A stretch of DNA of 55,829 bases from Candidatus Aenigmatarchaeota archaeon (GTDB lineage Archaea > Aenigmatarchaeota > Aenigmatarchaeia > CG10238-14 > SCSR01). This document shows, piece by piece, positions 51,001-55,829 of the stretch. The position numbers were made by a program. The stretch's first letter is position 1; each line of letters opens with the position of its first letter. The DNA lies in the NCBI GenBank assembly GCA_039090665.1, contig JAWCSL010000004.1, forward strand, positions 1-55,829, in the 5' to 3' direction.

Positions 51001-54000
51001 ATTGTAACTATATTGGTAATAGCTATAAATAGAATTTTTGTCAACAAGAATGTGGTAAAAGATCTTAAGGAAAAGATGAACGCCTTAAGAGAAGAGTTAT
51101 TAGAGGTACAAAAACAAGGAAATTTGGAAAAAGCTAAAGAAATTTTGAACGAAATAACTAAACATAACTTGAATTACATGAAACACACCTTGAAAGCTTT
51201 GTTAATATCCATAATTGTAATACTCTTAATATTGCCATGGGTTCAATACACTTACAAAAACATGCCAGTAGCAAAGCTTCCACTGGCATTGCCTTATATC
51301 GGTTCAGAGTTAAAATGGTTTATATGGTATTTTTTGGCTTCTCTTGCAGTTGGTTGGATAATAAGAAAGCTCATGGGGTGGGATTATGGCTAGCACTGCT
51401 AAAGTCAAAGTTAAATTACCTTCTGGTAAAGTTGTGATCAAAGAGAAATGGAAGAAAGCTTCTCCTGCTAAATGTGCAGGTTGTGGTAAACCTTTGCAAG
51501 GAATTCCTAGATTGAGGCAGCAGGAGTTGAGAAAATTAAAGAAGAGTAAGAGAAAACCTGAAAGGCCTTATGGAGGCTACTTTTGCTCTGAATGCATGAG
51601 AGAAGTTTTCAGGGAAAAAGCAAGAAAGATTTCATAAAACATTCCTCAAATTTTTTAGATCTTTTATAACTTTGTTTTTAAGTTTTACTATTTTTTCATC
51701 ATATTCTGAAATTTGGGAAATATCTCTTATTTCTTCTTCTACCAAACTTGATGAAAAAATTTTCATCCAATATTGTTGGTGAATAAGCACACGGTTTAAA
51801 ATAAAACCAAACTCAAAATTCCTAAGAGCATAGGTATCGGCAAACCAGGCAAAGGAATTCTCTTCTTCCTGAGAAGATAAAGTGTGATTAAAATTCCCAA
51901 ATTGGTTGCAATCAAAGTGAAGATCATTTTCTCCAAGCCAAAGAGCATGAAAGCCACAGCTGGAAGCATTGAATAGAAGACGACATCACCAAGACCAATT
52001 TTTATGAAATCAAAGTCTAATATCAACAGAGAGAGAAAGTCTATCTTAGTCTTCAAACCTTTTTTTGTTCTTACAGGCTTACCTATGATTTTATTCAAAG
52101 GGCCTTTGAAAACTGCGTAAACATCATAAACAGAAAGCAAGAGTGGGAAAATGAAAACTGTTGGTGGTTGTAGAATGGTAGCAAAATAACCTGCTATTTC
52201 TGCTCCTATGAAAATTGAAAGGAAATTTGAAAGAAAGTGAAAGCTTTTGAAATATGCTACAAGAAAGACTAAAACAACAAGGAAGATTGAGATAAACCAA
52301 GGAAGAAGAACCGAATCTGGGAAAATTGTTGAGAAAAGAATTAAGTTGATTGAAAAAACCGAGCTTATCAGAAATCCTGTAACCAAAGCTTTGATTAAAT
52401 TGAATTTTCTCCACTTGACTAAAAAGGCCAAGAAGAACCCAAAGATGAAAATTGAGGTCAGGAGAGGTAAAGAATTTGCAATCGCCCCTTCTACACTTTT
52501 GCCAAAAGGTTCATAAACTTCTTCTGCCAAAGGGGAAGAATAGAAAACTCTTGTCACAAAGATGGCTAACAGTTGAGCGATTAAAGTAAAAGACAAGACT
52601 CTAAGAGATGCTAGCTTGAACTGCTTTTCCATATAAATCCGGTTCTATTTCAAATTCTTCTCTGCTATTTCACCAGCTACCGGAAGCTTGAACCACTCAC
52701 CTTGATAAGCTTTTATCATGCAGACTATCCACACCACCACTGCAACCAAAGTGACAATACCTGAGAAGAAAAAGCCAATAAACGGAATTATTCCAAGAGC
52801 TATTGCAACCACGCTGAGTCCGATGAAAACGATTGTGGATTGTAAGGCATGGAATTTGACAAACTTACTGTCTTTTTCTAGCAGATAGAAGATAATTCCG
52901 GTGATCCATCCTAGCAGATAAGCTAGCAAAGCTTCTAAGTTTTCGTCCAAGCCCACAGATGTTTTCTTCTTAATTTCCTTTCTTTTTTCCTTTTTTCTTG
53001 GCATTTCAATCTTCTTTATTTTTTGTCCCTTAGATTTATAAAGCTTATTTGCTAAGAATAAATTTATAAAATGTCAAATAAGTTTAATTGAGGTTTTAAA
53101 CATGGGCTCTTTAGAAGTTGGCAGGGTAGTAATGAAAATTAGCGGAAGAGAGGCCGGAAAGTATGCTGTGGTAGTTAAAGGACCTGGAAAAGAAAAAGCT
53201 GAGAAAAATTTTGTGATTATAACCGGACCCAAGCTTTTGACTGGAGTTAAGAGAAGAAAGTGTAATATCAATCATTTGGAGCCTTTGCCTTATGTTCTTG
53301 AAATCAAAGAAGATGCAAGCGATGAAGAAGTTTTGGTTGCTTTTGAAAAGGCCAATTTGATAAAAAAGTTAGGGTTGAAAAAACCTTCTGCAGCTGAAAT
53401 TAAGGCTGAGAAAGCTAAAGAAGAGGAAAAGATGAAAGAAACCAATCTTGAGAAGAAAGAAGGAAAGAAAACTAAGAAAGAAAAGAAAAAACAGCAATAA
53501 ATTGTTTTTGTTATTTTAAACCAATTTATCAGAACAAAAACTTGAGAGCAATGTTAAGTTCTTTTTTCCCAAAATTCAACAAGTCTTAAAGCTTAATAGG
53601 CCTAAATAAAAAATAAAGGGGGTGAGTTTTGATTGTGGTTAGTAAAAAGTGAAGAAGAAACGAATGAAAAATATGGAAAAGCACCTGAAGCAAGAACAAT
53701 AGAAGAATTGATTAAAAGTTCGATAATAATTTGTGATAAGCATAGTGGTCCCACAGGAGCTTAAGCTCCGGGAAAATCACATCAAGTTACTGCTTGGGTG
53801 AAAGAAATTTTTGGTGTTAAGAAAGCAGGCCATGCTGGTACTTTAGATCCAGCTGTAACTGGTGTGCTGCCTGTAGCTCTAGAAAATGCAACAAAAGCCA
53901 TGCCCGTTTTAATGGGTTTAGAAAAAGAATATGTAGGAATAATGCATTTGCACAAAGAAGTTGATGAAAGCTTGCTAAGACAAACTGTTTTAGATTTTGT

Positions 54001-55829
54001 AGGGAAAATAGTTCAAGTTCCACCAGTGAAATCAGCAGTTGCAAGAAAACCTAGAATAAGAGAAATAAAGTTTTTTGATATTCTAGAAATTGAAGGTAAA
54101 GATGTTTTGTTTAAAGTCGGGTGTGAAGCAGGGACTTATGTAAGAAAGCTTGTGCATCAAGTGGGGGAAAAGCTTGGTGTTGGTGCCCACATGACAGAGC
54201 TAAGAAGAACAAGAGCAGGAAATTTCACAGAAGACCAAGCTCATCCTTTAGTTGAAATAAAAGATGCTTATGAATTTTGGAAAGAGGGAAATGAAAAGCT
54301 TTTGAGAGAGATTTTGATTCCTGTTGAATATGCAATTCTACATGTCAAAAAAGTTTTTGTTAAAGATTCTGCTATTGATTCAATTTGTCATGGTTCTCCT
54401 GTTTTTGTTTCTGGATTGAGCAGAATTCAAGAAGGTATAGTTAGGGGTGAAACTGTTGCTGTTTACAGTTTGAAGAACGAACTTGTTGCTTTAGGAATAG
54501 CCAAAATGGATAGCAAGGAAATGTATGAAAAAAAGAAGGGTTTGGCTATAAGAACGGATAGAGTTTTTATGGAGATTGGAACATATCCTTCAAGGAGAAG
54601 TGATTAGAAAATTATGTCTGTTAGTTTGATGTAAATTGTAACTAAAAGCTGCAACAATCTTGAAATTCTGAATTTTTTGCCATAGCCTCTAAAGAATTCT
54701 GTTTTTGCTTCTTCACTTTTTAAACTTGAAACAAAAGAAAGGACATCACAAAAAACCAAAAATTTTTTTGATCTTGAAGATTTCCTGAAAAGCTCTAGGT
54801 CTGTTCTTACTATATTGCCATCAAACATCCAGTTGCTTGACCTGTTATCTATGAAGTAAAAATTTTTATCGTTTAGCCTTCTTGTAATTTCTCCTATTTT
54901 TCTCACAATTTTCAAAACTTTTCTAGGGTTTTCAATCTCAAGATCATCTATTGTCAAAGCTTTTGCATCAAATTCCTCTTCCACAAATTTTTCTGAAAAA
55001 GAGAAGGATAAAATCCTTGTGGTCTTGATTCCCATTGAAGATAAAACTTTTCTTCCAAAAAGCTCGTTAGAAATTTTCCTTTTTGGTGAAATTGGCACTA
55101 TCAAGCGAAAGAAAAAAGTAGAAAAAGCAAGAAGGGCTAAATCGTGAAGAATATAGCCATAAACTGAAGGATAAAATTTAACAACTTTTCTTTTAATCAA
55201 CAAAATTTTCCTACTTGAAGCATGTCTAAACTTTTCTTCAGCTCTCACAATAAAAATTTGGTTTTTTGTAAAAAAATAATCACAGCTCTTATTTATGAAT
55301 GGGCTTTTGGTCTTGCTACTATGATATTCGCCAAAGTTTCCCTATTTAAAATTCACCCATTCACTTCTTTCTTCTACCCTTCTCTTATGGTTTGGTTATA
55401 TCATTTTCATTGACAACATTGTATTCTATTTAAAAGAAAATTCTCTACTAACAAGAAATCCTAAAAAACAATTTTTTGTACATACTTTCCGTGATTTTTG
55501 GCTGAGCTTTGAAATTTACAATCTTTTTCTTCAAGGTTGGAAATAGTGAACTTGAAATGGTTGTTGGTGTGGTTGCTTTTACCACATTCTTCTTACAATT
55601 TTTGAGACTGCAGAATTAATTAAAAGTTTCATCTTTTTGATAAAGTTAAAGCATCGAAAAATGGAAATAATTACAAACAAAAAAATAAAAGATATAAAAG
55701 TTGGGATGAGCAACATAAGCGAAGATTACTGATATTTCAAAAACTTGTGATGTTCGAATAAAGTATGGTAAGAGAAGTGTGTAGAAATAACAATTTAAGA
55801 TGATGCTGGAATAGGTCTAAGCTTTTGGG

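What a model noticed while it worked through the whole genome (the two positions that open the first line are those of the whole stretch)
53633..54607. A 21-nt bulge-helix-bulge intron with an in-frame stop codon inside the cbf5 (pseudouridine synthase) gene
The gene call for Cbf5 (g00515) lacks the first ~63 residues of its homologs; the missing part is encoded in the same frame just upstream, cut off by a 21-nt insert (C10:53755-53775) that holds a stop codon and folds into a textbook helix-bulge-helix-bulge-helix motif. I read the insert as a pre-mRNA intron removed by the tRNA splicing endonuclease and RtcB, without which no full-length Cbf5, the catalytic subunit of H/ACA pseudouridylation, can be made. 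New would be the first protein-gene intron in a DPANN archaeon, one of the shortest known, gained so recently that the three nearest species lack it, and gained in the very gene that carries the only well-known archaeal mRNA intron, but at a [...]
Evidence so far: Swiss-Prot: g00515 residue 1 aligns to residue 64 of Methanopyrus Cbf5 (55% id; call 168). Stop-to-stop frames: C10:53633-53764 and C10:53765-54607 are one frame broken by a single stop; the first ends and the second begins with the two halves of the conserved motif that precedes the catalytic Asp by 19 codons. DNA: a 4-bp exon-intron helix flanked by two 3-nt bulges, a 5-bp intron hairpin with a 4-nt loop, and a 4-bp outer helix; cutting after the second base of each bulge removes 21 nt and joins the two halves in frame with the motif restored as in relatives. 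My genome-wide scan for this motif returns exactly 53755-53775. Alignment with the orthologous DNA of G056, G054 and G052 (same genu [...]
(Added by a program. Inside this text positions count along the whole contig: contig position 1 is position 1 of the stretch shown here. "Call 12" and the like, gene names such as g00115 and contig names such as C1 are that model's own, and its searches are not shown. The text may have been shortened before it was handed on; [...] marks where a part breaks off. The agent that wrote the report below was given it as the finding of a first reader that could run no searches.)

Follow-up and report, generated by a model that had tools for sequence, protein, structure and literature searches.

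The report
Mini-intron splitting an archaeal cbf5 gene
A 21-base insert with a stop codon interrupts the pseudouridine synthase gene cbf5 of a tiny hot-spring archaeon, and its fold and its relatives show that it is almost certainly an intron cut out of the messenger RNA by the tRNA-splicing enzymes, a kind of intron known so far from only a few other archaea.

Summary
cbf5 (53633-54607, +) is one frame broken by TAA 53762-64. A 21-nt insert (53755-53775) sits inside the conserved GPT|SH motif. It folds as a canonical helix-bulge-helix-bulge-helix, and the cuts predicted after the 2nd base of each 3-nt bulge equal the homology-defined borders.

Contigs from three further studies carry the insert, so it is real DNA. 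EndA and RtcB are present, and dN/dS (0.085-0.090) shows no decay.

New here:
- Another genus (G074) has a homologous 20-nt insert at the same site plus a 13-nt insert in the catalytic Asp codon. Neither is a multiple of 3, so only RNA-level removal of both gives Cbf5.
- 14 relatives carry 12-30-nt BHB inserts between letters 1 and 2 of the Asp codon, the site of the classic crenarchaeal cbf5 intron.

Revised:
- The motif is not unique genome-wide (114 strict hits).
- "Recent gain" is doubtful, because the intron is shared patchily between genera.
- 21 nt is not especially short, since relatives have 12 nt.

No RNA data exist, so splicing is inferred. Verdict: a genuine BHB pre-mRNA intron (about 0.85), in a new lineage (DPANN, Aenigmatarchaeota-like) and at a new site. 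I found no report of it in the held library.

The parts
53618..53625 (+). Shine-Dalgarno-like GGGGGTGA, 7 nt upstream of the start codon
   Evidence: Read from the sequence. The same motif stands upstream of the cbf5 start in same-genus G007 (L007). Its function is inferred.
53633..53754 (+). cbf5 exon 1: TTG start, codons 1-40 plus the first two bases (AC) of Thr codon 41
   Evidence: Pfam DKCLD 6.5e-11. Aligns from residue 1 with relatives whose genes start with ATG or TTG at the same place. In-frame TGA at 53630-32 just upstream.
53755..53775 (+). 21-nt BHB intron. 53756-53776 gives the same product because both junction bases are A.
   Evidence: Absent from 12 of 12 relatives aligned. Exact 7-residue gap against solved Cbf5 structures. 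Borders equal the BHB-predicted cuts. Homologous 20-nt insert at the same site in G074.
53745..53780 (+). Complete hBHBh' splice motif: outer helix 53745-48/53777-80, central 4-bp helix 53749-52/53770-73, 3-nt bulges 53753-55 (ACA) and 53774-76 (AAA), inner 5-bp hairpin 53756-60/53765-69 with loop 53761-64
   Evidence: MFE and centroid structure of 53740-53790, -15.5 kcal/mol, z -3.0. Register check. Compensatory U-A to C-G change at central pair 1 between G000 and G074.
53762..53764 (+). In-frame TAA stop inside the hairpin loop of the intron
   Evidence: Translation.
53776..54607 (+). cbf5 exon 2: third base of Thr codon 41 through the TAG stop at 54605-07
   Evidence: Pfam TruB_N 1.4e-26, TruB_C_2 2.8e-23, PUA 4.4e-19. 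82-92% identical to same-genus orthologues.
53846..53848 (+). Catalytic Asp codon (GAT of GTLDP), uninterrupted in this genome. It is the site of the classic crenarchaeal cbf5 intron and of 12-30-nt inserts in 14 relatives.
   Evidence: Sequence. PMC2738675, Methods..
53102..53500 (+). Upstream gene: small KOW-motif protein (L14e-like; this name is my inference)
   Evidence: Pfam KOW 0.0046, below the curated cut-off. An L34e-L14e-Cbf5 neighbourhood is described for other archaea in PMC10833476 (passage read).

Best explanation
The 21 nt at 53755-53775 are a bulge-helix-bulge (BHB) intron in the cbf5 pre-mRNA.

Proposed mechanism:
1. The transcript folds locally so that the last bases of exon 1 pair with the 3' end of the intron (central 4-bp helix) and with the first bases of exon 2 (outer helix). 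This presents two 3-nt bulges on opposite strands.
2. The genome's single-subunit-type splicing endonuclease EndA cuts between bases 2 and 3 of each bulge.
3. RtcB joins the exons.
4. The mRNA then encodes a 317-residue Cbf5 with the motif GPTSH restored.

Unspliced RNA ends translation at the TAA in the intron hairpin after 43 codons, so Cbf5 output depends on splicing.

Shown: the DNA anatomy, its reality in several assemblies, register with homology, machinery present, purifying selection, and homologous or analogous introns in relatives that cannot be read through.

Inferred: the cleavage and ligation themselves, and any regulatory use.
For: 1. Exact 7-residue gap against solved Cbf5 structures, in the middle of a conserved motif.
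2. A canonical hBHBh' is the local MFE fold (z -3.0). Its rule-predicted cuts coincide with the homology-defined borders. The cut rule, between residues 2 and 3 of the bulges, is from PMC2738675 (Results read). The chance of such a motif in exact register is 4e-6 to 2.9e-5 per position.
3. G074, from another genus, has a homologous 20-nt insert at the same site and a 13-nt insert in the Asp codon. The conserved middle exon lies in another frame, and conceptual removal of both gives an intact conserved N-terminal region including GPTSH and GTLDP.
4. 14 relatives carry inserts of 12, 13, 15 or 30 nt exactly between letters 1 and 2 of the catalytic Asp codon, each with a stop. These include 6 of 6 genomes of genus g24. 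All fit the layout 1 nt + inner part + 4-nt helix strand + AA. In the 13 tabulated, 51 of 52 central-helix cells are paired, with compensatory C-G to U-A switches. G329 fits likewise.
5. EndA (full-length match to 1a79; one gene only) and RtcB (4.6e-165) are present. Nop10 is present.
6. dN/dS for G000 against same-genus orthologues is 0.085-0.090, within the range for intron-less pairs (0.061-0.112).
7. The insert is bridged without indels by contigs of 3 further studies.
Against: - There is no RNA evidence of any kind. No listed holder of this DNA is an RNA run.
- In a 131-nt context the outer 4-bp helix is not in the MFE or centroid structure, and the z-score is only -1.2.
- BHB-shaped motifs are common by chance in this AT-rich genome (114 strict hits), so the fold alone proves little.
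- My strict scan recovered only 1 of 10 ARAGORN-predicted tRNA introns, so the native splice-site rules of this organism are not established here.
- Exon 1 shows higher dN than exon 2 (0.22-0.26 against 0.042-0.046), although this N-terminal part is variable in all relatives.
- Gar1 was not found with Pfam in a genome 90.6% complete.
Confidence: 0.85

Rival explanations
1. Freshly broken gene (pseudogene). A 21-bp palindromic insertion with a stop inactivated cbf5, and the BHB-like fold is a coincidence.
For: - The reading frame is interrupted.
- No RNA evidence for splicing.
- BHB-shaped motifs are frequent by chance.
- DPANN genomes are reduced. Gar1 was not found.
Against: - dN/dS 0.085-0.090, as in intact orthologues.
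- The identical insert occurs in assemblies of 3 further studies with years from 2017 to 2023.
- The motif is in exact register with the homology borders (about 1e-5).
- A homologous insert in G074 has a compensatory change in the central helix and otherwise intact exons.
- All 99 genomes at least 90% complete in the class keep cbf5.
Confidence: 0.06
2. The insert is dealt with at translation. Options are TAA read-through giving a 7-residue loop, ribosomal bypass from GGA 53756-58 to GGA 53771-73, or two separate polypeptides (43 aa plus about 270 aa) that assemble.
For: - 21 nt is a multiple of 3, so the frame is kept.
- Matching GGA codons flank a hairpin that holds a stop, loosely like phage T4 gene 60 (my recollection of that system; the sequence is).
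Against: - The homologous insert in G074 is 20 nt and shifts the frame. The Asp-site inserts destroy the catalytic codon and include a 13-nt one.
- The insert splits the conserved GPTSH motif.
- In-frame starts after the stop lie beyond part of the conserved region; the first listed is GTG 53798.
- The stop is not adjacent to the putative take-off codon.
Confidence: 0.04
3. EndA cuts the motif but the halves are not rejoined efficiently. The element would then be mainly an endonucleolytic off-switch for cbf5 mRNA rather than a productive intron.
For: - A negative-regulator role was proposed for the crenarchaeal cbf5 intron (PMC2738675, Results read).
- Yeast TSEN cleaves some mRNAs without splicing them (PMC10485636, passages read).
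Against: - The gene is the only cbf5 in the genome (1 match) and is under purifying selection across both exons. That requires a productive joined mRNA at least some of the time.
- RtcB is present.
Confidence: 0.03
4. Assembly or strain artefact: the 21 nt do not exist in the organism's DNA.
For: - The palindrome can break assemblies. Contigs of run X8 stop at 53759/60.
Against: - Contigs of X6 (53300-54275), X7 (53300-53809) and X9 (53451-53881) bridge the insert with 0 gaps.
- No indel variant is listed in any of the 4 runs.
Confidence: 0.01

Closest known systems
Crenarchaeal cbf5 pre-mRNA intron (Aeropyrum, Sulfolobus, Desulfurococcales). Watanabe 2002 and Yoshinari 2006 were seen only as citations; Yokobori 2009 (PMC2738675): abstract, Background, part of Methods and Results read.
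   Same: - Same gene.
- Same kind of element: a short BHB intron with no ORF.
- Same cutting rule, between bulge residues 2 and 3.
- Same enzyme family (EndA).
- Size within the published 16-44 bp.
- Patchy distribution with apparent losses.
- 14 relatives of this genome have inserts at the identical position, between letters 1 and 2 of the catalytic Asp codon.
   Different: - The window's intron lies 24 codons upstream, in Thr codon 41 of the GPTSH motif, not in the Asp codon.
- Its motif is canonical hBHBh', whereas most crenarchaeal ones are relaxed.
- The host is a DPANN (Aenigmatarchaeota-like) archaeon with one EndA gene of the homotetramer type, not a hetero-oligomeric EndA.
- Relatives' introns go down to 12 nt, below the published minimum.
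Archaeal pre-tRNA BHB introns (hBHBh' motif; Marck and Grosjean 2003, seen as a citation in PMC5829648)
   Same: Identical geometry: 4-bp central helix between exon and intron, two 3-nt bulges on opposite strands, flanking helices, and the EndA plus RtcB pathway.
   Different: The substrate is an mRNA coding region. There is no tRNA body to help recognition, and the exon halves of the helices are constrained by codons.
HVO_1309 mRNA of Haloferax volcanii, cut by EndA and seen spliced in RNA-seq (PMC10485636, passages read)
   Same: It is the second known archaeal mRNA processed at a BHB motif. It shows that non-crenarchaeal EndA types act on mRNA.
   Different: Different gene and lineage. I did not see its sequence, so no structural comparison was made.
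12-bp putative introns inserted into protein genes of an archaeal virus (Peng et al., as described in PMC2738675, Results read)
   Same: Very short (12 bp) inserts in protein-coding genes of archaeal genetic elements, of unknown insertion mechanism. They match the 12-nt size class found here in genus g24 and in G040.
   Different: Splicing was never shown for them. They keep the frame and may be translated.
HAC1/XBP1 unconventional mRNA splicing in eukaryotes (recalled; a paper title on RtcB and HAC1 splicing was seen in the reference list of PMC5829648)
   Same: Non-spliceosomal removal of a short intron from an mRNA by an endonuclease acting on stem-loop sites, followed by an RNA ligase (RtcB in animals).
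   Different: The endonuclease is Ire1, not EndA, and the motif differs. It is stress-regulated, and there is no evolutionary relation of the introns.

Membership tests
Archaeal BHB (bulge-helix-bulge) intron | Two 3-nt bulges on opposite strands separated by a 4-bp helix | tested here: met
   TCCC/GGGA, 4 Watson-Crick pairs, between ACA (53753-55) and AAA (53774-76). It is the MFE structure. Register check.
Archaeal BHB (bulge-helix-bulge) intron | Flanking helices h and h' (strict hBHBh' form) | tested here: met
   Outer GTGG/TCAC (3 WC + 1 G-U) and inner GGAGC/GCTCC (5 bp, loop TTAA). The outer helix is lost in the 131-nt MFE.
Archaeal BHB (bulge-helix-bulge) intron | Cuts between bulge bases 2 and 3 give a precise, functional exon junction | tested here: met
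   Predicted cuts remove 53755-53775, which equals the 7-residue gap against solved Cbf5 structures and relatives.
Archaeal BHB (bulge-helix-bulge) intron | Splicing endonuclease EndA and ligase RtcB encoded by the organism | tested here: met
   PF01974 1.5e-27 and PF02778 9.3e-19 in one 188-aa ORF. RtcB 4.6e-165.
Archaeal BHB (bulge-helix-bulge) intron | Helices kept by compensatory change in homologues | tested here: met
   Site 1: U-A to C-G at central pair 1 between G000 and G074 (only 2 sequences). Asp site: 51 of 52 central-helix cells paired in 13 sequences, with C-G/U-A switches at pairs 2 and 3.
Archaeal BHB (bulge-helix-bulge) intron | Spliced RNA (and excised or circular intron) observed | not testable with these tools
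   No RNA run holds this DNA.
Classic crenarchaeal cbf5 intron | Position between letters 1 and 2 of the catalytic Asp codon | tested here: not met
   The window's intron is in Thr codon 41. The Asp codon 53846-48 is intact. The feature is met by inserts in 14 relatives.
Classic crenarchaeal cbf5 intron | Mostly relaxed BHB, linked to a hetero-oligomeric (alpha-beta)2 EndA | tested here: not met
   The motif here is canonical. Only one EndA-family gene was found, and it aligns over its full length with the homotetrameric M. jannaschii enzyme 1a79. The oligomeric state itself is inferred.
Cbf5/TruB pseudouridine synthase (H/ACA catalytic subunit) | DKCLD + TruB_N + TruB_C_2 + PUA architecture with the catalytic Asp | tested here: met
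   All four Pfam families are over their cut-offs. 1.3e-99 to M. jannaschii Cbf5 2apo. GTLDP present.
Programmed translational bypass (T4 gene 60 type; features recalled) | Matched take-off and landing codons, a stop directly after take-off, conserved in homologues | tested here: not met
   GGA...GGA are present, but the stop is one codon further on. In G074 the matching geometry would land out of frame.

The most novel reading that the evidence does not exclude
The cbf5 mini-introns may be mobile BHB elements. They would spread between archaeal lineages and insert again and again at two fixed sites of one gene without any homing endonuclease. One route would be reverse splicing by EndA/RtcB into cbf5 mRNA followed by copying back into DNA.

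In support:
- The site-1 intron is 19/20 identical (plus one indel) between two genera whose cbf5 exons are saturated at synonymous sites (dS 1.73, third-position identity 0.53).
- The Asp-site intron of G007 and G021 is 15/15 identical at dS 2.26.
- Both intron-bearing genes nest among intron-less close kin in the gene tree.

A second bold reading not excluded: the Asp-codon intron is one ancient intron shared by DPANN and Crenarchaeota and lost many times.
Probability: 0.3. Interest if true: 0.85.

Novelty: new member of a known kind. Interest (0 to 1): 0.66.

Why it matters
Protein-gene introns cut by the tRNA-splicing endonuclease are a rarity in Archaea. [quoted passage not shown]

What this finding adds:
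- It extends the phenomenon to DPANN archaea.
- It adds a second insertion site in the same gene.
- Through the relatives, it shows that the classic Asp-codon site is also occupied outside Crenarchaeota, by introns as short as 12 nt, in organisms with a single EndA gene of the homotetramer type.

That sharpens two open questions and makes them testable. First, how are BHB introns gained: by mobility or by ancient inheritance? Second, why cbf5, of all genes?

There is also a practical lesson for annotation. Gene callers truncate or split such genes; here the call lost the first 60-odd residues. cbf5 would be mis-scored as truncated or broken in 11 of 107 genomes of this order.

Tried and rejected
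- **RNA evidence.** The look-up of sequencing runs listed 9 holders with at least 0.68 of the words, in 5 studies, and no RNA holder. Expression and splicing could therefore not be examined.
- **Site-1 intron in public collections.**
  - Genome contigs pattern: 1 hit, G074's own contig.
None of the loci fetched showed cbf5 by tblastn, so these are chance matches. The window's own records may have been left out.
- **Other mRNA introns in G000.** Of 1749 strict-BHB hits, 39 would merge two open frames. I tested 20 of the 38 other than cbf5 with Pfam on both halves. None splits a domain; all look like neighbouring genes. The other 18, relaxed motifs and introns over 60 nt were not tested.
- **Repeated element.** The 14-nt palindrome is unique in the genome.
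- **Rfam.** No family within 53300-54700 on either strand at E up to 1.
- **tRNA positive control.** My strict scan recovered only 1 of 10 ARAGORN intron calls, so it is a poor model of this organism's tRNA introns, or ARAGORN's calls are unreliable.
- **Tree.** The careful search did not finish in the time allowed, so the quick IQ-TREE tree was used. Its group statistics were uninformative.
- **Internal stops in the genome searches.** In G010, G058, G046, G072, G060, G113, G061, G142, G268, G343, G331 and G357 they lie outside the core alignment, at gene ends. In G183 (L191) and G162 (L194) one stop lies within the tblastn alignment, but outside the first 220 columns that I printed; I did not locate it, and neither locus has an insert at either site.

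
Full report
**1. The observation**

Positions 53633-54607 (+) form one reading frame broken by a single TAA at 53762-64.
- The 43 codons before the stop match Pfam DKCLD, the N-terminal domain of Cbf5/dyskerin (6.5e-11).
- The 280 codons after it match TruB_N, TruB_C_2 and PUA.
- Solved archaeal Cbf5 structures (2apo 1.3e-99, 3mqk, 3lwo) align from query residue 3-4 to 320. The only disturbance is a 7-residue gap in the chain opposite 'GAxAPGK', between the conserved GPT and SH.
- A DNA alignment with 12 relatives shows the same thing as a clean 21-nt insert, absent from 12 of 12.

The start codon can be fixed as TTG 53633. It aligns with the ATG or TTG of the relatives, is preceded by an in-frame TGA, and follows GGGGGTGA at 53618-25.

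**2. The fold**

The 51 nt around the insert have, as both MFE and centroid structure, exactly the canonical hBHBh' motif (-15.5 kcal/mol; z -3.0; 0 of 200 shuffles as stable):
- outer helix GTGG/TCAC
- central helix TCCC/GGGA
- bulges ACA and AAA
- inner hairpin GGAGC-TTAA-GCTCC

The published rule for archaeal cbf5 introns puts the cut between residues 2 and 3 of each bulge (PMC2738675, Results read). Applied here it removes 53755-53775, which is precisely the stretch that homology says is extra, and it recreates a Thr codon (AC|A). In a 131-nt context the outer helix competes with other pairings and the z-score falls to -1.2.

**3. Is it more than chance?**

- A generic strict-BHB scan of both strands gives 1749 hits with an inner helix of at least 2 bp and 114 with at least 5 bp.
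- Five of those 114 have a 21-nt 'intron'.
- The fold alone is therefore weak evidence in this 34% G+C genome.

What is improbable is the coincidence of two independent things. The chance that a given 21-nt stretch has the motif in exact register is 4e-6 (inner helix at least 5 bp) to 2.9e-5 (at least 2 bp) per position.

**4. Real DNA, not an artefact**

Nine runs from five studies, all labelled hot-springs metagenome, hold at least 68% of the words of 52500-55500. I laid four runs not flagged as the possible source, each from a different study.
- Contigs of X6 (53300-54275), X7 (53300-53809) and X9 (53451-53881) bridge the insert with no gap.
- No indel variant was listed.
- X8's contigs break at 53759/60, the centre of the 14-nt palindrome.

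No RNA run is available.

**5. Machinery and selection**

- The genome encodes one EndA. PF01974 and PF02778 hit the same 188-aa ORF, which aligns over its full length with the homotetrameric M. jannaschii enzyme 1a79, with a roughly 6-residue insert in the catalytic domain.
- It also encodes RtcB and the Cbf5 partner Nop10. Gar1 was not found with Pfam.
- cbf5 is single-copy.
- Its dN/dS against same-genus orthologues is 0.085-0.090, the same as between intron-less orthologues (0.061-0.112). Its terminal branch is not long.
- All 99 genomes of the class that are at least 90% complete have cbf5.

**6. The decisive comparative evidence**

(a) G074, a member of another genus of the same family (record title: a Candidatus Aenigmatarchaeota MAG; L073), has two inserts.
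- A 20-nt insert sits at the same site. It is clearly homologous: 19 of 20 aligned bases are identical, plus one deleted base.
- A 13-nt insert sits in the catalytic Asp codon.
- Neither is a multiple of three. The conserved middle segment (…SHQITAW…GHAGTL) lies in a different frame, and only removal of both restores a conserved Cbf5.
- This excludes read-through, bypass and 'translated loop' explanations for the family of inserts.
- Between G000 and G074 the first pair of the central helix changes from U-A to C-G through a synonymous exon change matched by an intron change.

(b) Fourteen genomes have inserts of 12, 13, 15 or 30 nt, each with a stop. They are G007 (same genus as the window), G021, G040, G074, all six of genus g24, G124, G139, G215 and G329.
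- The inserts lie exactly between letters 1 and 2 of the catalytic Asp codon.
- That is the published position of the crenarchaeal cbf5 intron (PMC2738675, Methods).
- All fit one layout: 1 nt, an inner loop or hairpin, a 4-nt strand pairing with the Thr-Leu codons, then AA. The 3' bulge is AAA and the 5' bulge is AGA, AGT, GGA or TGA.
- In the 13 tabulated, 51 of 52 central-helix cells pair, with C-G/U-A switches at pairs 2 and 3. G329 is a textbook hBHBh' with yet another helix sequence.

**7. Frequency**

- Order: 11 of 107 genomes with a cbf5 match carry at least one insert (verified).
- Class, genomes at least 90% complete: 4 of 99.
- Among the 85 held loci covering each site, the site-1 insert is in 2 (G000, and G074 by hand) and the Asp-site insert in 14 (13 automatic plus G074 by hand). 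This set is enriched for flagged genomes.

Only rows flagged with internal stops were fetched beyond the first 60 relatives. Stop-free in-frame inserts in unfetched genomes would therefore have been missed.

**8. History**

In a quick ML tree of 77 Cbf5 sequences, G000 sits inside its genus (support 95) and G074 inside genus g11 (support 97), each surrounded by intron-less kin. The site-1 intron is therefore not simply 'gained a moment ago in G000'.
- Exon synonymous sites between G000 and G074 are saturated (dS 1.73; third-position identity 0.53), yet the introns are nearly identical.
- G007 and G021 have 15/15 identical Asp-site introns at dS 2.26.
- Either the whole intron sequence is under strong constraint, or these introns move between lineages.
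- By my own rough binomial estimate, at 0.53 identity per site, 19 or more matches of 20 has probability about 6e-5. This ignores pairing constraints, so it overstates the case.

**9. What it is and how it compares**

The best explanation (about 0.85) is a BHB pre-mRNA intron removed by EndA and RtcB. Splicing is required for any full-length Cbf5, because unspliced RNA stops after 43 codons.

It works like the crenarchaeal cbf5 intron and like tRNA introns. It is not a member of the classic cbf5 intron lineage in the narrow sense:
- the site differs (Thr codon 41, 24 codons before the Asp codon);
- the motif is canonical rather than relaxed;
- the host has a single EndA gene of the homotetramer type.

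Kaneta et al. 2018 (PMC5829648, passages read) note that homotetramer-type EndAs with an extra loop in DPANN go with many disrupted tRNA genes. That fits the relaxed 12-nt substrates in the relatives. Their EndA frames are of similar size in G007, G030, G074 and G102. Whether the insert seen is that loop was not tested.

**10. Novelty**

Searches of the held library were: cbf5 + DPANN; DPANN + splicing endonuclease + protein-coding + intron; Aenigmarchaeota + intron; BHB + protein-coding + Nanoarchaeota; BHB + mRNA introns + archaea. They gave no report of a cbf5 or other protein-gene BHB intron in DPANN. Subscription journals are not covered, and supplements of PMC2738675 (intron sizes, alignments) were not opened.

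I rate the finding a new member of a known kind: a new lineage and a new site, with the wider pattern in the relatives as the more interesting part.

**11. Limits**

- There is no RNA or protein evidence.
- The oligomeric state and specificity of EndA are inferred.
- The tree is a quick search.
- The class-level listing was truncated at 150 rows.
- No crenarchaeal sequences were compared directly.

Noticed in passing
L034 (G021:C6:9900-13300), about 930-2519: The cbf5 of G021 carries the 15-nt Asp-site mini-intron. It also carries a roughly 520-residue in-frame intein with a LAGLIDADG homing-endonuclease domain after GTYVRKL (Pfam Intein_splicing 2.3e-20, LAGLIDADG_3 3.3e-15). One gene is thus interrupted at both RNA and protein level.
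   Followed up: partly
L007, L012, L033, L034, L053-L058, L189, L190, L193, L224 (catalytic Asp codon of cbf5): Fourteen relatives have 12-30-nt BHB inserts between letters 1 and 2 of the catalytic Asp codon, the same site as the classic crenarchaeal cbf5 intron. All 6 genomes of genus g24 have a 12-nt one, shorter than the published 16-bp minimum.
   Followed up: yes
L030 (G045:C21:1893-5720), cbf5: A TAG stands where relatives have the conserved Glu codon of GAHMxELRRT. It looks like a point nonsense change or a sequencing error, not an insert.
   Followed up: no
G000 whole genome: ARAGORN finds only 23 tRNA genes, 10 with predicted introns (4 to 377 nt). Only one of these introns fits a strict BHB scan. 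The tRNA set is probably rich in disrupted or non-canonical genes.
   Followed up: partly
window 53759-53760: Logan contigs of run X8 end and begin exactly at the centre of the intron's 14-nt palindrome (GGAGCTTAAGCTCC), while three other runs bridge it. The palindrome seems to break some assemblies.
   Followed up: no
window 54604-55248 (-): A 214-aa ORF converges on cbf5 and overlaps its stop codon by 4 nt. It has no Pfam family at E up to 0.01.
   Followed up: no
G329:C2:70002-70262 and G329:C3:69741-70013: G329, which has a textbook 30-nt Asp-site intron, has two EndA-family genes (frames of 403 and 208 aa). The family-f1 genomes checked have one each.
   Followed up: no
G000 whole genome: The Gar1 family (PF04410) was not found, while Nop10 is present (C9:2487-2624). 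Gar1 may lie in the missing ~10% of the genome or be too divergent.
   Followed up: no
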